Shown here piece after piece: positions 24,054 to 31,716 of a DNA stretch of 64,000 nt. The stretch is from Candidatus Helarchaeota archaeon (GTDB lineage: Archaea > Asgardarchaeota > Lokiarchaeia > Helarchaeales > RDOG01), in the NCBI GenBank assembly GCA_019058315.1, contig JAHPZH010000007.1, positions 160,001 through 224,000 on the forward strand. Reading direction: 5' to 3'. Both the position numbers and the translations under genes were made by a program. The stretch's first letter is position 1; every line of letters begins with the position of its first letter. Below the pieces are notes generated by a model, which searched no databases, had not been told where the DNA came from, and was given only the letters and a program-made list of their open reading frames with translations.

Positions 24054-24992
24054 ATGCAATGTAGGGGTATAAATATCGATCCAAATATTATGAAAGAGGT
24101 CTTGAAACAAATTAATAAAGACAGAATCTCGTCTGAATTAATTTATAATATAATTAGAGATAAAGGATGGGATTTTAAAAGGAAAGAATTATATTTAATT
24201 TCAAAATTAAGAATAGAGTTTGAGGATCCAGAATTTTGGTATTATTTGGGTCTATTTTTCTTTGAAAATTATGAATTGGATAAAAGCCAAGATATATTTT
24301 TAGAAAATGCGTTATATTGCTTTAATAAACCATTTGAAAACAATAAAAATAAAGGTAAAACCATTTTATGTGATGCTTTTGATAATCCAAAAGATATTTT
24401 TTCCTTATCATATTCAGAATATATTGAATTTTTGAACGAATCTCTTGATCATTTGATTGTGATTTATAATAAACCATGCTTTTACGAAGGTTTTTCTTTA
24501 CTTGAGGTTATTCCAAAGAAACCAGAAATAGTCGAGAGGTTTGAGGTTATTATTACAGCTGAATATAATGAACTTATTCAAGATAAAGAAAAAATATTTG
24601 GTGAACGATTACGTCAAATTCAATTTGAAAATAAATTATATGGGATTTTAAAAATATATAAAAAAATACGGCTCTCTGAACTGGCAAAAAAATTAGATTG
24701 TGAACAATCCTATTTAGAAGAAACTTTAGAAAAACTTGTTTTAGAAGAAAAAATTAATGGAACCATAAGAAATCAGTTTTTAACAATTACTAAATTACCT
24801 GAAGATCAAGAAATAATACCTATTATTACAATTAAAGAAGGTCAATGTGCTATATGCAGGGAGGAAATCAAAGAAGAATCATTAACTTGCTCAAATTGCT
24901 CTTCAAAATTCCATAAAAGCTGTTTTTCAAAATGGATTGAAAAAAGCGAATTATGTCCAGTTTGTCAAAAAGAACTTGAAATATTTGAATAA
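24054..24992 (+). CDS. Helical repeat + PCI-type winged helix + RING (C4HC3) protein, putative E3 ligase
   Basis: TPR-like PEFWYYLG...ALYCF; WH YKKIRLSELAKKLDCEQSYLEETLEKLVLEEKINGTI; CAIC-x10-CSNC-x4-HKSC..KW-x6-CPVC. Confidence 0.78.
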   Translation: MQCRGINIDPNIMKEVLKQINKDRISSELIYNIIRDKGWDFKRKELYLISKLRIEFEDPEFWYYLGLFFFENYELDKSQDIFLENALYCFNKPFENNKNKGKTILCDAFDNPKDIFSLSYSEYIEFLNESLDHLIVIYNKPCFYEGFSLLEVIPKKPEIVERFEVIITAEYNELIQDKEKIFGERLRQIQFENKLYGILKIYKKIRLSELAKKLDCEQSYLEETLEKLVLEEKINGTIRNQFLTITKLPEDQEIIPIITIKEGQCAICREEIKEESLTCSNCSSKFHKSCFSKWIEKSELCPVCQKELEIFE

Positions 24993-25051
24993 TAATAAAT
25001 AAATCATATATTTTTTATTAGAAAATTAATTTAAAATAAGTTGGGAATGAT

Positions 25052-25792
25052 ATGAGCCATGATTATTGGTTAAGAAAAGGTTTAAACGAGAGTACGAGAG
25101 AAAGGAAAATTAAATGCTTTGAAAATGCAATTCGCAAATACTCAACTCACGAAATCTTTGCATTTGATGAGTTGGGTCATTGGATTGCTGGATATTTGAA
25201 ACTTAACAACATAAATAGTTTTCTGACTTATAGATTTTTTGGAAGTGTCCATGATAGACTTGGAAATACAAGAAAAGCCATCGAATATTATAAAAAAGCA
25301 ATAGATATCGACCCTAATGATGAGTTTATCTGGCATAGAATCGCGGAAAACTATAGAAACTTGTTAAATTACGAAAAAATAATAGAATGTTATGAAAATT
25401 CAATAAAAATTGATCCAAATATAAAATTTAAATGGATTAATTTAGGAGAAGCTTATTTCAATTTAAATAAATATAAGAAAGCAATTGAATGTTATCAAAA
25501 AGCTTTAGCTATAGAAGAACATCATCTCGAACAAATTGATTTAATTAATGCATGGGAAGGTTTAGGAAATGCACATAAAGAGTTAAAAAATTATGAAAAA
25601 GCTATAAAATGTTATGAAAAAGTAATAAAACTAGATTACAATTATGATTTGGCTTGGGAAAATATGGGATTGATTTATGAGGAATTAAAAAATTATCCAA
25701 AAGCAATTGAATGTTATAAAAATGCATTAAAAATTAACAAATTTAATGAAATTGCTCAAGAACGATTAGAAAAGTGTGAGTCAAAGGAGTGA
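25052..25792 (+). CDS. Tetratricopeptide repeat protein
   Basis: About 5 repeats of W..LG..Y..L..Y.KAI.CY.KA..IDP. Confidence 0.92.
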   Translation: MSHDYWLRKGLNESTRERKIKCFENAIRKYSTHEIFAFDELGHWIAGYLKLNNINSFLTYRFFGSVHDRLGNTRKAIEYYKKAIDIDPNDEFIWHRIAENYRNLLNYEKIIECYENSIKIDPNIKFKWINLGEAYFNLNKYKKAIECYQKALAIEEHHLEQIDLINAWEGLGNAHKELKNYEKAIKCYEKVIKLDYNYDLAWENMGLIYEELKNYPKAIECYKNALKINKFNEIAQERLEKCESKE

Positions 25793-25799
25793 ATAAAAT

Positions 25800-27812
25800 A
25801 TTTCTAATATACAAGAACCAGATGTAGAAAAATTAGGTCTCTCCAAAGATATTGATGGTTTAATTAAAGCTTTAGAATATCCAAAATGGTATATTAGAAA
25901 AGATGCTGCAAAATGGCTTGGAAAATTAAAGGAATTAAAAACAGCAAAATTATTAATACAACTACTCAAGGACGAAGATTGTTATGTACGAGAGAATGCA
26001 GAGGATTCTCTTATAAGTATGGGTAGTGATGTGGTTGAACTCCTCATCCCTTATCTTAAAGACAAAAATAATAGTATTAAGGGAAATGTAGCAAGTATTC
26101 TTGGTCGTATTGGAGATAAGAGAGCAATTAAACCCCTTATGCCGCTTTTAAATGATGATGACGAAATTGTTCAAATCCGAGTATCTTATGCTCTTAAGAA
26201 TCTTGACTGGAAACCTACCGATAAACAATTAGAAATGAGTTACGAATTTGCTAAAGGTGATTGGAAAGATCCTCATACAATGGACAAAGGTCTACAAAAA
26301 ATTGAAGAAATAATAAACTCTCCTGATTTATTACCAAAACCACCTATAAAACCACCAATCAAACCAGTTCCTAAATCAAAACCTCCTATTCCATCTTTAA
26401 AAGGAAAACCATTAGAAATTATTCTTCCATATTTAAATGATAATGATGAAAATATCCGTATTGAAGCAATAAAAGCTCTTAAACATGTAAAAGACGATAA
26501 AAAAGTGAATCTTCTCATCCATTCTTTCGAAGATAAAGATGAAGATGTCAGATATGAGGCAGTTAAATCTTTAAGTAAGATAAAAAATCTTAAAGCGGTA
26601 GATTCTATAGCTCAACTTTTATGGGACGATTCCTATTTAGTTCAAAAAAAGGCATTAGAAGTCTTAAGAAAAATTGGAAATGCAAACGCGGTAGATCCTC
26701 TGATTAAAGCTCTAAAAGATAAAGTCATTTATACTGAAGCTTTTGAAACTATTGAAAAAATTGGAAAATCTGCTATTACACCTCTTATCAAATTCCTTAG
26801 GGATGAAGATTATTGGATTCGAAAAAACACAGCAGAAACTCTTAATAAACTTGGATGGAAAGCAAAGAATGAAACCGAAAAAGCTTATTATTTAATTGCA
26901 ATTGATGACTCTAAAGGGTGGGAAGAGATAGTAAAATTAGGAGATTTTGCCCTAGAACCCCTCATTAAATCATTAAGTTATAAAAAGTTTCCTAGATTTG
27001 GAGATATTATTTTTCCGGATGATAGAGCAATTGCCCTTTCTGAATTAGGAGAGATAGCATTAGAGCCTCTTATAAAGGCACTAAAGGAAGGAGATTCTAA
27101 TACAAGATGGGGTGCAGCTGAGGCTTTAACGTTTATAGGAGATGTAAGGGCTCTAGAACCCCTTGCCCAAGCTTTAAATGATGAAAATTCAGATGTGAGA
27201 CATAGCGCAATTAGTGCTTTTAGTCATTATTCAGATAAAGAAGTAATAGATGTTTATATAAAGTATAATATGTTAAAGCATAAAGATATTCGAGTCAGAT
27301 TTAGTGCAATGAGAGATATAGGTTGGAGAGAAGATTATCGATTAGTGGAACCTCTACTCCAAGCATTAAAAGAAGATAACTATAGAATTATTGATTCAGC
27401 AGTTCATTCTTTATCAAAGTTAAAAGAAAAAAGAGCAGTAGAACCTCTTATAAAATTACTTAAACATAAAGACTCGATGATTATAAGAACAGCAGCTGAA
27501 GGTCTTGGAGATATAGGAGATGTAAGAGCAGTAGAACCTCTCATAGGGATGCTTAATAATGAAGATTGGCAAATTTTAAGAGAAATAATCAATGCGCTTG
27601 GTAAAATAAGAGATAAAAAAGCAGTAGAGCCCCTTATCCAACTCTTAAATGATAAGGATAAATTTATTAGATTGGAAGCTGTAGAAGCTCTTACAAATAT
27701 TGGTGACTTTACAGCAATTGATCCGATTTATGAGACCATACAAAAAGAAAAAGTTAATTATATAGCAGAAGCTATGCAAAAAGCCTTGGAAGAGTTAAGA
27801 AAAAAAATTTAA
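25800..27812 (+). CDS. HEAT/PBS-lyase repeat protein
   Basis: Many AVEPLI..L.D....VR..A..ALG.IGD repeats; Pro-rich linker. The frame is open upstream of track start 26019 to ATT at 25800 (after SD GGAGTGA) and encodes further repeats. Confidence 0.9.
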   Translation: MSNIQEPDVEKLGLSKDIDGLIKALEYPKWYIRKDAAKWLGKLKELKTAKLLIQLLKDEDCYVRENAEDSLISMGSDVVELLIPYLKDKNNSIKGNVASILGRIGDKRAIKPLMPLLNDDDEIVQIRVSYALKNLDWKPTDKQLEMSYEFAKGDWKDPHTMDKGLQKIEEIINSPDLLPKPPIKPPIKPVPKSKPPIPSLKGKPLEIILPYLNDNDENIRIEAIKALKHVKDDKKVNLLIHSFEDKDEDVRYEAVKSLSKIKNLKAVDSIAQLLWDDSYLVQKKALEVLRKIGNANAVDPLIKALKDKVIYTEAFETIEKIGKSAITPLIKFLRDEDYWIRKNTAETLNKLGWKAKNETEKAYYLIAIDDSKGWEEIVKLGDFALEPLIKSLSYKKFPRFGDIIFPDDRAIALSELGEIALEPLIKALKEGDSNTRWGAAEALTFIGDVRALEPLAQALNDENSDVRHSAISAFSHYSDKEVIDVYIKYNMLKHKDIRVRFSAMRDIGWREDYRLVEPLLQALKEDNYRIIDSAVHSLSKLKEKRAVEPLIKLLKHKDSMIIRTAAEGLGDIGDVRAVEPLIGMLNNEDWQILREIINALGKIRDKKAVEPLIQLLNDKDKFIRLEAVEALTNIGDFTAIDPIYETIQKEKVNYIAEAMQKALEELRKKI

Positions 27813-27880
27813 TTCAATATTTTATTTTAGATTTTTTTGAACACAAACAAAATAAAAGAAAAAAAATTAGGAATATTCTG

Positions 27881-28978
27881 TTAATCTACTTTTAACAATG
27901 GATTCATTATTCCGAAAGAACCCGTTCGAACTAACGCTGCTTTTAAGAATTGGTAACCAATATCGTATGTTGAGCCATCTCCACCAATTGCAATAACAAC
28001 ACTTGGTGTTCCCTTAAAATGACCTTTAGTTTTTAAAATTCGTTGTGTAGTAGCGATTGCATCTCCTATTGTGGCAGATGTTTCAAAAAGGTGATGCATC
28101 CAAGGCACTTTCCAGCTAGGAACATCATCTTTTGAAAGTGAGACTTCTGAGCAACTCGTGTTATTTGTAATTATGACATTCTTTCCAGCTACCATATATG
28201 CGGCTAAAGCTAAATGGTTGAGTGATACTGCGAGTCCACATCCTGAGCAAAGTCCATAACCTGGTGCAAATAGATCTTGATTTGGAATCTCTTGAGGTTT
28301 AATTGTATACATTTCTATTTGAGCATCAGGATCTCCAAATGCTCTAACTAAATTAAGTATATTTTCATTACGTTGTCTATAAGATTCCCAAATTTGGTCG
28401 ATAGCATCTTCATTAAGTGTTGGTCTTACGAGATGTCTATATTTCCCTAAAAGGTTTATATATTCTACTAATTTCTCTCGATCAGGTTCAGCTTTGAGCT
28501 TTCGACTGAGATAATAAGTTGGTCTTCCATCTCTTACCTTTATAGAAAATAGGGGCCATATACCTGCATCAACTGCGAGTTTGTCGACTTTGTGTGTGAC
28601 ATTTAGTGCATGTCGCCATCCTCGATCGCATGAAGTAAGGGCTTGGATAAAAGCAGATCCGGGAGTTTTAAGTGCTTCAACAACTTTACCTATGAAATCT
28701 TGTGGGTAAGCTGCACTTACTGTTGCTAAGAAAGATGATTTCATACCTAGAAAAGCAAAACCGTTTATTATATCTTGTTTAACTCCAATTTTTCCTGGTA
28801 TTGCTTTTCCACCAGGACCAGTAGTAGTAGACGCAAAAGGGGGAGTAGAACCAGATTCCTGAATTCCCGTATTCATAAAAGCTTCGTTATCATAATTATA
28901 ATATAACATATAATTTTTTGTAGGACGTTTTAATAGATCTTGAACTTTAATTACACGTGCTTTCATTTTTTCACTCAT
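27881..28978 (-). CDS. porB: 2-oxoacid (pyruvate):ferredoxin oxidoreductase beta subunit, circularly permuted
   Basis: YDNEAFMNTGIQESGSTP near the N-terminus; APGYGLCSGCG, TSCSEV and GGDGSTYDIG in the C-terminal third; last gene of the por operon. Confidence 0.9.
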   Translation of the reverse strand: MSEKMKARVIKVQDLLKRPTKNYMLYYNYDNEAFMNTGIQESGSTPPFASTTTGPGGKAIPGKIGVKQDIINGFAFLGMKSSFLATVSAAYPQDFIGKVVEALKTPGSAFIQALTSCDRGWRHALNVTHKVDKLAVDAGIWPLFSIKVRDGRPTYYLSRKLKAEPDREKLVEYINLLGKYRHLVRPTLNEDAIDQIWESYRQRNENILNLVRAFGDPDAQIEMYTIKPQEIPNQDLFAPGYGLCSGCGLAVSLNHLALAAYMVAGKNVIITNNTSCSEVSLSKDDVPSWKVPWMHHLFETSATIGDAIATTQRILKTKGHFKGTPSVVIAIGGDGSTYDIGYQFLKAALVRTGSFGIMNPLLKVD

Positions 28979-28987
28979 ATTTATCAC

Positions 28988-30202
28988 CTATATTTCTTCA
29001 ATAACTCCTTTTTTCTCTCGTACACCGAGAAATGTATAAAGTTCTCCTTTCATATCATTTATTTTCTTCATTTTCTTCAAAGCCGCGTTAAACTCATCGT
29101 AAGTCACGTCACGACCACCTAAACCAGTAATAAAGCTGTGAACAATAGTTCCTAATGGATAGAGTGATGGTAAAACACTTTGAGTAACTTGAGGTGCGGG
29201 TGCACCAGGAGCATCATTCTTCTCTAATACTATAACCTTTTCAATTCCATTATCATTAATGATTTTACGAAGTTCTTCTGTGGGAAATGGTCTATAAGAT
29301 CTGATTTTAATCAAACCAGCATCTTTGGGGTCAAGCATCCACTGCTTCAGGGTACCACACATCGAACCAAGAGTAAGAAAAGCGATTTTTTTACCATCAA
29401 GATTGAAAGTCTCAATTCGTTCATATTTTCGACCTGTAGCTTTTTCAAATTCTTTGAATTTTTCATCCATTATTTTGGGGACATCCTTTTTTGCTACATC
29501 AATAGCTCTTCTTTGTTCCATGAAATAATCTGGGGTAACTATTCCACCCCAAGTACCGGGCTTTTCAGTAGTAATTGTATGTCTTTTAACACGGGGTGTC
29601 ATCTTGCGAACTACCTCATCTGGGATTACTTTGAATGTTTGTGCTGAATGGGAAATTATGAAACCATCATGACAGAATAATGTTGGAAATAACGATTTTT
29701 CAGCTATCATGCAACTTAATATAGCGGCATCATAGGTTTCTTGAACATTTTCAGAAAATAATTTATTCCATCCATGATCCATAAGAGTAACTTCCCAACT
29801 ATTCCAGATTGATAAATTGGGAGCATTCCAAGCTCTATTTGAAATCAACATATAAACCGGGACTCGCCACCCAACAGCCATTGGTAAACCTTCTTGCATT
29901 AATAAATAACCTTGAGATGCAGTTGCAGTGAATCCGCGAGCTCCAGCTGCAACAGCGGCAGTTATATAAGCTATTGCTGCATGTTCACTTTCAACGTTCA
30001 CGAAAGCAGATTTTAAACGTCCATGATTAACTACATCGCTTAAACCCTCAACGGATTGAGTTTGTGGCGTGATAGGAAATGCGCAAATTACATCCGGATC
30101 GGTCTGAGCGACAGCTCCAGCAACTGCATAATTTCCAGTCATAATTAAAGTTTTTTCTTCTTTGATTTCTTCAAAAAATGGCGCCATTGGAACAACACTC
30201 AT
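28988..30202 (-). CDS. porA: 2-oxoacid (pyruvate):ferredoxin oxidoreductase alpha subunit
   Basis: GNYAVA, AFPITPQT, VESEHAA, TATASQG, DGFIISH, RPFP, GLGGRDV. Confidence 0.93.
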   Translation of the reverse strand: MSVVPMAPFFEEIKEEKTLIMTGNYAVAGAVAQTDPDVICAFPITPQTQSVEGLSDVVNHGRLKSAFVNVESEHAAIAYITAAVAAGARGFTATASQGYLLMQEGLPMAVGWRVPVYMLISNRAWNAPNLSIWNSWEVTLMDHGWNKLFSENVQETYDAAILSCMIAEKSLFPTLFCHDGFIISHSAQTFKVIPDEVVRKMTPRVKRHTITTEKPGTWGGIVTPDYFMEQRRAIDVAKKDVPKIMDEKFKEFEKATGRKYERIETFNLDGKKIAFLTLGSMCGTLKQWMLDPKDAGLIKIRSYRPFPTEELRKIINDNGIEKVIVLEKNDAPGAPAPQVTQSVLPSLYPLGTIVHSFITGLGGRDVTYDEFNAALKKMKKINDMKGELYTFLGVREKKGVIEEI

Positions 30203-31131
30203 GCTTCCACCCCCGTTTTCTTTAATTCTGCAGTTAAAGCTCCTTTAGGGCATACTTCAACGCAATTTCTACAACTTTTACAATGTTTCTTATCTACTCC
30301 TACGACTTTCCATGTTCCATCAGATTGTTTTTCTCTTATTATTGAAAGATCAGGACACGTGAGAAAACATCTTTGACAATTTATGCATTTTTCAATATCA
30401 TGCTTTATAATGTAAGGACCCCATTCACCAGTTTTCACTTTTTCAGAACCACCAGGAATATACCAGATAGCACCAGTATCTAGATCTTTATAACCAAGAA
30501 GTTCAGGTTTTACATGGCTCCACTCTTTTTTAACACCCTTTTCAAGATCTAATTTTATATCAGTTTTCATGAATTCAACTGTATCATAAGCTTCTTGGAC
30601 CAATTGAACGTTTTTTTCAGCAATATTTTTCGAAAAAACTTTAAATAATGCATTTTTCACACCATCGATGGTAAATACATCTGAAGCTTTCGCAATTGCT
30701 CCAAGAATTGCGGTATTAGTAATTTCTCTCCCAAGAAGTTTTATTGAGAGGCTCGTAGCATCAATAATACCTATATTGATATCATTACGCTTAATGAATT
30801 TTTTAATCTGATCAAAGCTCATTTCTGTATTTACTATTAATGTGCCACCAGGAGGCATCCCTTCTGTTACGTCAAGTTCTTTTAAAAGAGAATCATCGAG
30901 AACTCCAACAATTTCGGGTGTATAAATTTCGGTTTGAAGTTGAACTAGTTTTGGATTTTTGCTCATAGCAGCATATGCTGCTGTTGGAGAACCCATTCTT
31001 TCCGCTCCAAATTTTGGTTGTGCTCGTCCAGGACCATCAAAGCTTTCTACGGCTAATTGTGCAGCAGTAACACCGCCTTGTCCACCTCTTGCATGGAATC
31101 GTATAAAAACAACTCTATCTTCTTTAGACAT
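30199..31131 (-). CDS. porC: 2-oxoacid:ferredoxin oxidoreductase gamma subunit fused to delta (2x[4Fe-4S]) subunit
   Basis: IRFHARGGQGGVTAA, FGAERMGSP, NTAILGA; then KTGEW, CINCQRCFLTCPD, CKSCRNCVEVCP; ATG 31131 follows SD CAGGAGA. Confidence 0.9.
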   Translation of the reverse strand: MSKEDRVVFIRFHARGGQGGVTAAQLAVESFDGPGRAQPKFGAERMGSPTAAYAAMSKNPKLVQLQTEIYTPEIVGVLDDSLLKELDVTEGMPPGGTLIVNTEMSFDQIKKFIKRNDINIGIIDATSLSIKLLGREITNTAILGAIAKASDVFTIDGVKNALFKVFSKNIAEKNVQLVQEAYDTVEFMKTDIKLDLEKGVKKEWSHVKPELLGYKDLDTGAIWYIPGGSEKVKTGEWGPYIIKHDIEKCINCQRCFLTCPDLSIIREKQSDGTWKVVGVDKKHCKSCRNCVEVCPKGALTAELKKTGVEA

Positions 31132-31323
31132 TTTAATTTCTCCTGAAACTTTTAAATTATGTATGTAATGCACATTTTAATTACATTTAAAAATTCATAT
31201 TGTTTGATCTTCTTAAAACATAGCAAACTTAGTATTATTAAAATTATTGATTTTAAAGTAAGGAGAAATAATAAATCTAATTTGAGGGAAGAAAATTTTA
31301 AAATAGGAAAAAATTTTATCCAG

Positions 31324-31716
31324 TTATTTAATTTTACTATATAATTCTTTTAAAATTTCTTTGTGTACAACTAGACCAACTAGTTTGTTATCTTCTACAA
31401 CAGCAATACGCCTTAGACGTTTTTCTAACATAATTTCAAGTATTTTCTTTAAAGAGGTCTCTGGAGAGACGGATTCTATATTTTTTTTCATAATATCCTC
31501 AACTTTCATGCCCCCAACTGAAATATTAAATCTAGAAAGCATGATGTCACGCATTGAAATCTCCCCAATAAAATTTCCTTCTAAATCGATAACTGGTAGC
31601 CCACCAATACTATTTCGAGTCATTAATAGATCAGCTGCAGCAACTTGTTCTGTTGGAGGTATTGAAATTGGATTCTTTACCATAACATCTTTGGCTTTAA
31701 TATCTTTTATCGACAT
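31324..31716 (-). CDS. CBS domain pair protein
   Basis: KAKDVM, IGGLPVID, KVEDIM, RRIAVVE..KLVGLV. Confidence 0.9.
   Translation of the reverse strand: MSIKDIKAKDVMVKNPISIPPTEQVAAADLLMTRNSIGGLPVIDLEGNFIGEISMRDIMLSRFNISVGGMKVEDIMKKNIESVSPETSLKKILEIMLEKRLRRIAVVEDNKLVGLVVHKEILKELYSKIK

What the first reader, a model, noticed from the sequence alone, without database searches (positions are those of the whole stretch)
27881..28978. Circularly permuted PorB with the TPP-binding motif split between the protein termini
Seen in sequence: the normally C-terminal half (YDNEAFMNTGIQESGSTP...CDRGW...GKYRHL) comes first. The normally N-terminal half (APG..LCSGC, TSCSEV, PWMH.LFE, GGDGSTYDIG) comes last, within one uninterrupted ORF. 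Established: in PFOR beta subunits the order is CxxC...C...GDG-x24-27-N...C, and the GDG...N motif is contiguous. Here the permutation point falls inside that motif, so GDG is about 30 aa from the C-terminus and the Asn about 30 aa from the N-terminus. All four cluster cysteines are retained (track residues 120, 247, 250, 279). Inference: a functional natural permutant, potentially a rare genomic marker for this lineage.
Basis: partly seen in the sequence, partly recalled or inferred. Interest (0 to 1): 0.85.

Follow-up and report, generated by a model that had tools for sequence, protein, structure and literature searches.

The report
Circularly permuted oxoacid-oxidoreductase beta subunit
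This Asgard (Loki/Hel-type) archaeon encodes the thiamine- and iron-sulfur-binding subunit of a pyruvate-type 2-oxoacid:ferredoxin oxidoreductase with its two halves in swapped order; the swap is real, is conserved under purifying selection across one archaeal class, and hides the gene from standard annotation.

Summary
The gene at 27881-28978 (-), 365 aa, matches PorB in two blocks in swapped order. Residues 28-198 (numbering from the GTG three codons upstream) match PorB 120-281, and residues 239-354 match PorB 9-115.

The break lies between the helix after GDG and the strand before DNE..N. The old C- and N-termini are fused at about residue 216-218.

It is not a misassembly:
- More than 118 full-length colinear homologues exist, at 52-100% identity.
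- It was found in 65 of 78 sampled genomes of the same class, against 1 of 223 elsewhere in the phylum.
- Contigs from another study bridge the junction.

The cofactor motifs and the four cluster cysteines are invariant. dN/dS is about 0.04-0.05. The porCD-porA-porB order is conserved, and a PorA-PorB complex is predicted (0.81 against 0.00 for the controls).

After re-ordering the halves, the family forms one clade on a long stem, which fits a single origin.

NCBI labels the members "hypothetical protein". The substrate is undecided and the activity is untested. I found no paper describing the permutation. This scan has already found and confirmed the same permutation in at least eight other genomes.

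Verdict: a new variant of a known enzyme kind, probably working as an ordinary OFOR.

The parts
27881..28978 (-). Circularly permuted beta (TPP / proximal [4Fe-4S]) subunit gene, 365 aa plus stop
28913..28978 (-). Family-specific N-terminal extension (residues 1-22). The model shows a short strand (7-11) and a short helix (12-16). I10 is nearly invariant and L16 invariant.
28388..28912 (-). Block equivalent to the canonical C-terminal half of PorB (about PorB 118-285). It holds DNEAFMNTGIQES (D30-N36 at 28871-28891) and cluster Cys117 (28628-28630).
28274..28387 (-). Junction region. The old C-terminal helix runs straight into the old N-terminal segment, with the fusion point near residues 216-218.
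   Evidence: bridged by independent contigs
27926..28273 (-). Block equivalent to the canonical N-terminal half of PorB (about PorB 9-117). It holds Cys244 and Cys247 (28238-28249), Cys276 (28151-28153) and GDG 333-335 (27974-27982).
27884..27925 (-). C-terminal extension (residues 352-365). In the model it continues the post-GDG helix, and it is predicted to touch PorA.
28984..28989 (-). AGGTGA Shine-Dalgarno-like site, overlapping the porA stop codon and lying 5 nt before ATG 28978
27859..27866 (-). T8 run 15 nt after the stop codon, a likely archaeal oligo-T terminator
   Evidence: function is inferred
28988..30202 (-). porA-like alpha subunit (POR_N plus PFOR_II), 404 aa, the dedicated partner
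30199..31131 (-). Fused gamma-delta subunit (POR domain plus 2x[4Fe-4S] ferredoxin domain), 310 aa from ATG 31131

Best explanation
The gene encodes the beta subunit of a three-gene (gamma-delta / alpha / beta) 2-oxoacid:ferredoxin oxidoreductase of the Por/Vor clade. Its PP (diphosphate-binding) domain is circularly permuted.

One polypeptide carries the normally C-terminal half first: the DNE..N Mg/diphosphate loop and the fourth cluster cysteine. The old C-terminal helix is then fused directly to the old N-terminal segment. The normally N-terminal half comes last: CxxC, the third cysteine and GDG.

On folding, the two chain ends meet and rebuild the usual PP-domain topology. The TPP-Mg site and the proximal [4Fe-4S] cluster are therefore formed as in canonical PorB. 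The subunit pairs with its own PorA, which supplies the pyrimidine-binding domain. Electrons leave through the two clusters of the fused gamma-delta subunit to ferredoxin.

The permutation arose once, in an ancestor of the window's class (Loki/Hel-type Asgard archaea). The most likely route is an in-frame tandem duplication of porB followed by loss of the outer half-copies. It has been kept under purifying selection since.

Shown here: the swapped order, its conservation, the invariant cofactor residues, the operon context, and the single clade.
Inferred: correct folding, catalysis, and the duplication route.
Open: the substrate; pyruvate is only the best guess.
For: Swapped order:
- Two blocks in swapped order against PDB PorB and the OOR beta subunit and against NCBIfam PorB.
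- The profile-profile alignment carries the first block to the very C-terminus of the canonical profile (298 of 303) at residue 218.

Real and conserved:
- 228 homologues, of which the top 120 have 96-99% coverage in one alignment.
- 118 of 118 full-length members are in permuted order, against 75 of 75 other relatives in canonical order.
- 65 of 78 class genomes have it, against 1 of 223 in the rest of the phylum.
- It is present in a closed 4.36-Mb genome.
- Contigs from another study bridge the junction.

Constraint:
- DNEA.MNTGIQES, GDG and the four Cys are invariant.
- dN/dS is 0.036-0.05 overall and 0.02-0.05 in both halves (dS is saturated).

Fold:
- AF2 model with pLDDT 81.9 and pTM 0.87. 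Confidence is low only in the cofactor loops 33-66.
- The secondary-structure elements correspond one to one, in cyclic order, with a model of the genome's canonical paralogue.
- PDB PorB and PFOR chains are the top structural matches, at Z 12-13.7 over about 182 residues.

Context:
- The porCD-porA-porB order is kept in every related locus with enough flank, and PorA is 59-68% identical.
- The PorA-PorB complex scores 0.81 (three runs: 0.78, 0.81, 0.81) against a best control of 0.00. In the tool's calibration, 58 of 80 solved complexes and 2 of 110 mismatched pairs reached its mark. The runs agree in at least 99% of contacts, and partner pLDDT is 86. Like complexes have been solved, so this pass may only reflect that likeness.

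Single origin:
- The permuted clade has SH-aLRT 100, one change of state on the tree, and a stem of 1.12 substitutions per site.
- At 50% clustering of 1.84 billion proteins there is only one full-length permuted representative.
Against: - No biochemical, transcript or protein evidence was obtained here.
- I had no access to model coordinates. The spatial reunion of GDG with DNE..N is therefore inferred from topology and model confidence, not measured.
- Sequential structure aligners cover only about half of the model (TM 0.42-0.52). This is expected for a permutant, but it is not positive proof of whole-fold identity.
- The loops that bind the cofactor have low model confidence.
- The long stem branch could also mean a change of function.
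- No tandem beta-beta intermediate was seen, so the duplication route is unsupported by direct evidence.
- The complex prediction may only reflect likeness to solved PFOR complexes.
Confidence: 0.85

Rival explanations
1. Assembly artefact: a chimeric or mis-joined contig put the two halves of an ordinary porB in the wrong order.
For: The window comes from a metagenome-assembled genome (12 contigs, 6.6% contamination). The best DNA holder, X1, may be the source sample, so it is not independent.
Against: The same colinear order is seen in more than 118 proteins from many sources (NCBI, JGI, ENA, Logan) at 52-100% identity. It is seen in 66 species genomes, including a closed one. X2 record 7 (28171-28477) and X3 record 15 (27882-28396), from another study, bridge the junction, and no joints are reported.
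Confidence: 0.01
2. Non-catalytic relic: the rearranged subunit no longer binds TPP or the cluster, and survives as a structural or regulatory partner or as a slowly decaying pseudogene.
For: The protein falls below all curated cut-offs: Pfam 19.7 against 21.9, and NCBIfam PorB 204.6 against 405. It sits on a long stem branch. The cofactor loops have low model confidence. The genome has other Por/Vor-type enzymes that could do the chemistry.
Against: GDG, DNEA.MNTGIQES and all four cysteines are invariant across 118 sequences, although overall identity falls to about 52%. dN/dS is about 0.04-0.05 with no stops. A dedicated PorA at 59-68% identity and PorCD are always adjacent. The low profile scores follow from the split into two stretches, not from decay.
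Confidence: 0.05
3. Same product, different origin: the permutation arose by fission of porB into two genes, followed by re-fusion in reverse order, or by another rearrangement, rather than by tandem duplication and trimming.
For: No tandem beta-beta intermediate was found among the listed relatives. The overlap of the two termini on the canonical profile is only about 5 positions (117-122), which is too short to count as a duplication remnant.
Against: The junction keeps the complete old C-terminal helix, joined in frame to the complete old N-terminal segment with only a few extra residues. A head-to-tail duplicate gives exactly this. No split half-genes were found: the short forms P0122 and P0317 lie on contigs where many genes are broken by frameshifts.
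Confidence: 0.2
4. Functional enzyme with a new job: the permuted complex is not a pyruvate enzyme. It would be specialised for another 2-oxoacid (for example from amino-acid breakdown) or for the reductive, synthase direction, and the permutation would accompany that shift.
For: The stem is long. The genome holds 11 alpha-subunit genes, so there is much room for specialisation. None of 61 class genomes has a beta subunit that passes the PorB equivalog cut-off, so no paralogue can be named the pyruvate enzyme by profile. The fused gamma-delta subunit resembles the oxalate oxidoreductase layout.
Against: The best profile for the beta subunit is PorB (204.6 bits), above VorB (180) and OOR beta (149.5). 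The best profile for alpha is archaeal PorA. The nearest canonical relatives pass the PorB cut-off (P0124 at 460.7, P0129 at 410.9). The genome's two canonical paralogues lean towards VorB.
Confidence: 0.35

Closest known systems
PorB, beta subunit of the four-subunit archaeal pyruvate:ferredoxin oxidoreductase (Methanosarcina acetivorans, PDB 9bt4 chain C; NCBIfam NF008819)
   Same: It has the same residues for TPP-Mg binding (GDG, DNE..N) and the same four cysteines for the proximal cluster. Both halves align at E 1.5e-38 overall. It is the top structural match. The gene is likewise adjacent to PorA.
   Different: The order of the halves is swapped, and the old termini are fused. There is a new 22-residue N-terminal extension and a post-GDG helix about 12 residues longer. 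It scores only half the family cut-off. Gamma and delta are fused into one gene.
Oxalate oxidoreductase of Moorella thermoacetica (PDB 5c4i/5exd/5exe; NF045790-92)
   Same: It has a three-gene layout with a fused domain III plus ferredoxin-domain subunit. PorCD matches the OOR delta profile over positions 57-307 of 316. The beta subunit aligns in two blocks at E 2.2e-33.
   Different: The OOR beta subunit is colinear (canonical order). The scores here are far below the OOR cut-offs (149.5 against 590), and nothing points to oxalate as the substrate.
The genome's own canonical Por/Vor-type beta subunits (G000 C1:242628-243509 and C11:112866-113807)
   Same: They belong to the same superfamily, carry the same motifs, and sit next to an alpha subunit.
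   Different: They have canonical order and 300-304 aa, share only 31-37% identity with each half of the permuted protein, lean towards VorB by profile, and fall in a different part of the tree.
Domain-order rearrangements and split genes in ThDP enzymes: PP-PYR against PYR-PP order, called a circular permutation of domains in bioRxiv 10.1101/2021.03.21.436335, and the split-gene transketolase of PMC7661550
   Same: These are natural re-orderings or breaks of the ThDP-binding machinery that keep function.
   Different: Those changes lie between whole domains. Here the cut is inside the PP domain, between the two ends of the GDG-x-N motif itself. I found no described case of that.

Membership tests
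PorB equivalog (NCBIfam NF008819) | Whole-protein profile score at or above the curated cut-off (405 bits) | tested here: not met
   204.6 bits in two stretches. The shortfall comes from the swapped order.
PorB equivalog (NCBIfam NF008819) | Colinear order CxxC ... C ... GDG-x(~25)-DN..N ... C | tested here: not met
   The order here is DN..N ... C ... CxxC ... C ... GDG.
PorB / OFOR beta subunits | TPP-Mg motif residues (GDG and DNE..N) present | tested here: met
   They are invariant in the 54-sequence alignment and at least 98% conserved in the 118-sequence one.
PorB / OFOR beta subunits | Four cysteines for the proximal [4Fe-4S] cluster | tested here: met
   Cys117, 244, 247 and 276 align with the PorB cysteines and are 100% conserved.
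PorB / OFOR beta subunits | PP-domain fold | tested here: inconclusive
   Each half matches: Z 12-13.7 over about 182 residues, TM 0.42-0.52. The secondary-structure elements correspond one to one in cyclic order with a canonical model. No permutation-aware superposition could be run.
PorB / OFOR beta subunits | Encoded beside, and binding, an alpha (PorA) subunit with gamma and delta modules | tested here: met
   The porCD-porA-porB operon is present here and in relatives. The complex is predicted at 0.81 against a best control of 0.00 (58 of 80 solved and 2 of 110 mismatched pairs reached the mark); this is a prediction only and may rest on likeness to solved complexes.
PorB / OFOR beta subunits | CoA-dependent oxidative decarboxylation of pyruvate, or another 2-oxoacid, with ferredoxin | not testable with these tools
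   This needs anaerobic biochemistry.
Pfam TPP_enzyme_C (PF02775) | Score at or above the gathering threshold over the whole domain | tested here: not met
   19.7 against 21.9 bits, with only profile positions 77-150 matched, at residues 29-115.
VorB subfamily (NF008818) and oxalate oxidoreductase beta (NF045792) | Profile score at or above the cut-off (405 and 590 bits) | tested here: not met
   180 and 149.5 bits, both lower than the PorB score.

The most novel reading that the evidence does not exclude
The permutation is not neutral. The conserved new chain ends are an N-terminal strand plus short helix, and a post-GDG helix lengthened by about 12 residues that is predicted to lie on PorA. 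These ends would make closure of the TPP-Mg site depend on docking with the alpha subunit. That would give the class a differently assembled or regulated 2-oxoacid:ferredoxin oxidoreductase with its own substrate. The swap would also be a clean rare genomic change that defines the Loki/Hel-type class.
Probability: 0.15. Interest if true: 0.75.

Novelty: new variant of a known kind. Interest (0 to 1): 0.62.

Why it matters
First, it is a natural circular permutation that cuts the PP domain between the two ends of the GDG-x-N motif shared by thiamine enzymes. It shows that the cofactor site can be built from the two ends of a chain, which is useful for protein-engineering and fold-evolution work.

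Second, it hides a central-metabolism gene. Pfam and NCBIfam cut-offs fail, and NCBI records call the protein "hypothetical". Metabolic reconstructions of Asgard archaea can therefore score this oxidoreductase as lacking its beta subunit.

Third, its near-exclusive presence in one class (65 of 78 genomes against 1 of 223) makes it a candidate rare genomic change for Asgard systematics, and a check on mis-binned contigs.

The enzyme chemistry itself is probably ordinary.

Tried and rejected
- RNA evidence: no RNA holder was listed for this stretch, so nothing can be said about expression.
- Read mapping: only assembled contigs were available, not raw reads. They show bridging, not depth.
- Split-gene idea: the short relatives P0122 (257 aa) and P0317 (278 aa) looked like half-genes. 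They lie on contigs where POR, POR_N and hydrolase genes are also broken, so I rejected them as frameshift artefacts.
- Occurrence outside the class: the only hit (G211) is cut by the end of a 2.8-kb contig in a bin with 8% contamination, and it reads like the class consensus. I treat it as probable mis-binning.
- Duplication remnants at the termini: the canonical profile aligns the N-terminus from position about 116-118 and the C-terminus up to about 122. An overlap of about 5 positions is too short to use as evidence.
- Deciding Por against Vor by curated cut-offs: 0 of 61 class genomes have any beta subunit above the PorB cut-off (best 398.5 bits), so the substrate could not be assigned.
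- Whole-fold superposition: Foldseek and VIA-align are sequential and cover only one block. Model coordinates are not exposed, so no permutation-aware alignment or GDG-to-DNE distance could be computed.
- hhalign printed only the best block.
- Atlas look-alikes: the nearest clusters are ordinary pyruvate synthase beta subunits (0.95), which adds nothing.
- Taxonomy of the nearest canonical relatives: the sources give almost no names, apart from an 852-aa fused form from Altiarchaeales.
- Literature: four full-text searches found no description of a permuted PorB or OFOR beta subunit.

Full report
**What is there.**
On the minus strand lies a three-gene operon.
- The first gene is a fused gamma-delta subunit, 30199-31131. 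It has a POR domain plus two ferredoxin-type cluster motifs.
- The second is an alpha subunit, 28988-30202, with POR_N plus PFOR_II.
- The third is the gene in question, 27881-28978.

The ORF finder starts the last gene at GTG 28987. However, AGGTGA at 28984-28989 overlaps the porA stop codon and precedes ATG 28978, and the homologues begin with the same MSE.... A T8 run follows the stop codon.

Against the solved PorB of Methanosarcina acetivorans (9bt4 chain C), the protein aligns in two blocks in swapped order. In GTG-start numbering, residues 28-198 match PorB 120-281, and residues 239-354 match PorB 9-115.

The oxalate oxidoreductase beta subunit gives the same picture, and so does the NCBIfam PorB profile. 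Pfam's TPP_enzyme_C sees only its second half, near the N-terminus, and falls below threshold.

A profile-profile alignment carries the first block to the very end of the canonical profile at residue 218. The old C-terminal helix is therefore joined almost directly to the old N-terminal segment.

The new ends map to canonical profile positions about 117-122. This is the loop between the helix that follows GDG and the strand that leads to DNE..N. In sequence terms the motif is thus split. GDG sits 30-32 residues from the C-terminus and DNEAFMN at residues 30-36. By the general layout of PP domains (my knowledge, not tested here), that loop lies on the side of the sheet away from the cofactor.

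**It is not an artefact.**
- A word-indexed search found 228 homologues. The best 120 cover 96-99% of the query in one alignment, at 52-100% identity and 350-375 residues.
- In my own domain parsing, all 118 full-length members have the permuted order, and all 75 other relatives with both halves have the canonical order.
- An exhaustive search of 1.84 billion cluster representatives found one full-length permuted representative plus fragments. Nearly all the other listed matches align in two stretches, in canonical order, at 44% identity or less; the few one-stretch exceptions are short pieces that hold a single half.
- A sample of 301 species genomes of the phylum gave full-length colinear matches in 65 of 78 genomes of the window's class, and in 1 of 223 others.
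- That single outside copy is cut by the end of a 2.8-kb contig in a bin with 8% contamination.
- A closed 4.36-Mb genome, labelled Ca. Harpocratesius repetitus in NCBI, has the same operon.
- Contigs from runs of another study tile the gene and bridge the internal junction, and no joints are reported.

**It is constrained.**
Across 118 sequences the stretch DNEAFMNTGIQES, the GDG triplet and the four cysteines (117, 244, 247, 276) are invariant or nearly so. Against two relatives at 84-90% protein identity, dN/dS is 0.036-0.05 overall. It is 0.02-0.05 in each half and 0.05-0.27 in the linker and the terminal extensions. dS is saturated, so these ratios are rough.

**Fold and partners.**
The AF2 model is confident (pLDDT 81.9, pTM 0.87). 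The exception is the loops at 33-66, which bind the cofactor in relatives.

Its helices and strands correspond one to one, in cyclic order, to those of a model of the genome's canonical paralogue (pLDDT 94.3). The additions are a short N-terminal strand and helix (7-16), and a post-GDG helix that runs to residue 363, compared with 16 residues in the canonical model.

Sequential structure aligners put PorB and PFOR chains on top but cover only one block: Z 12-13.7 over about 182 residues, TM 0.42-0.52. This is expected for a permutant.

The complex with PorA scored 0.81 (runs 0.78, 0.81, 0.81) against a best control of 0.00. In the tool's calibration, 58 of 80 solved complexes and 2 of 110 mismatched pairs reached its mark. 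The runs agree in at least 99% of contacts, and partner pLDDT is 86. The beta-side interface spans residues 266-362, including the lengthened C-terminal helix. Like complexes have been solved, so this pass shows likeness rather than proving binding.

The porCD-porA-porB order is kept in every related locus with enough flank. PorA is 59-68% identical there, against 28-34% to the alpha subunits of the canonical paralogues.

**Origin.**
I re-ordered the halves in silico and built a tree with 75 canonical relatives. The 24 permuted sequences form one clade (SH-aLRT 100) on a stem of 1.12 substitutions per site, and they are not sister to the genome's own canonical copies.

This fits a single old event. 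The complete old C-terminus fused in frame to the complete old N-terminus is what a tandem duplicate trimmed at both ends would leave. I found no intermediate, though, and the overlap at the termini is too short to count. The duplication route therefore remains an inference.

**Function.**
The best profiles are PorB for the beta subunit and archaeal PorA for the alpha subunit, and the nearest canonical relatives pass the PorB cut-off. The genome's two canonical Por/Vor-type beta subunits lean towards VorB. The genome holds 11 alpha-type genes in all.

No beta subunit in 61 genomes of the class passes the PorB cut-off, so the substrate cannot be assigned. Pyruvate is only the best guess.

**Known or new.**
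Four full-text searches found no description of a permuted OFOR beta subunit. The literature does use "circular permutation" for the order of whole PP and PYR domains among ThDP enzyme groups (bioRxiv 10.1101/2021.03.21.436335), which is a different level of change.

NCBI records name the members "hypothetical protein", while JGI names some of them as an oxidoreductase beta subunit.

This scan has met the same permutation before, in at least eight other genomes, and each was confirmed by a follow-up agent. I re-tested the core claims independently on this DNA. I did not test their claims about expression or about named cultured species.

**Verdict.**
This is a real, conserved and apparently undescribed variant of a well-known enzyme subunit. 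It most likely works as an ordinary 2-oxoacid:ferredoxin oxidoreductase.

Noticed in passing
window 24054-27812 (+); L022:5132-7676: Downstream of porB lie a RING/PCI-like gene, a TPR gene and a HEAT-repeat gene. In a relative at 84% PorB identity, a 311-aa PCI(weak)/zf-RING_2 gene and a 538-aa gene sit in the same position next to porB, so this neighbourhood is conserved.
   Followed up: no
window 31324-31716 (-); L020:1262-1654, L021:165-557: A 130-aa CBS-pair protein lies directly upstream of the operon, here and in the closest relatives. It may be a small-molecule-sensing neighbour of the oxidoreductase.
   Followed up: no
L009:2085-2231: About 740 nt downstream of the full permuted porB of genome G252, a second stretch matches residues 314-362 of the protein (the GDG end) at 61% identity. 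It could be a partial duplicate or a fragment.
   Followed up: no
G000 (own genome), 11 places listed: The genome carries 11 genes with a POR_N alpha-subunit domain, eight of them strong matches. This is an unusually large repertoire of 2-oxoacid:ferredoxin oxidoreductases.
   Followed up: partly
P0123 (852 aa) and P0141 (562 aa): The most similar canonical relative by phmmer is an 852-aa fused protein whose cluster-mates are labelled Altiarchaeales. Another relative fuses PorB to a hydroxyacylglutathione-hydrolase-like domain.
   Followed up: no
L024 and L025 (ENA contigs): Many genes on these contigs, including POR, POR_N and hydrolase genes, are split into adjacent short ORFs. This points to frameshift errors in those assemblies, so proteins from them look falsely truncated.
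   Followed up: partly
window 28979-28987 and 31132-31173: The mechanical ORF starts of porB (GTG 28987) and porCD (GTG 31173) are probably too far upstream. Shine-Dalgarno-like sites precede ATG 28978 and ATG 31131.
   Followed up: yes
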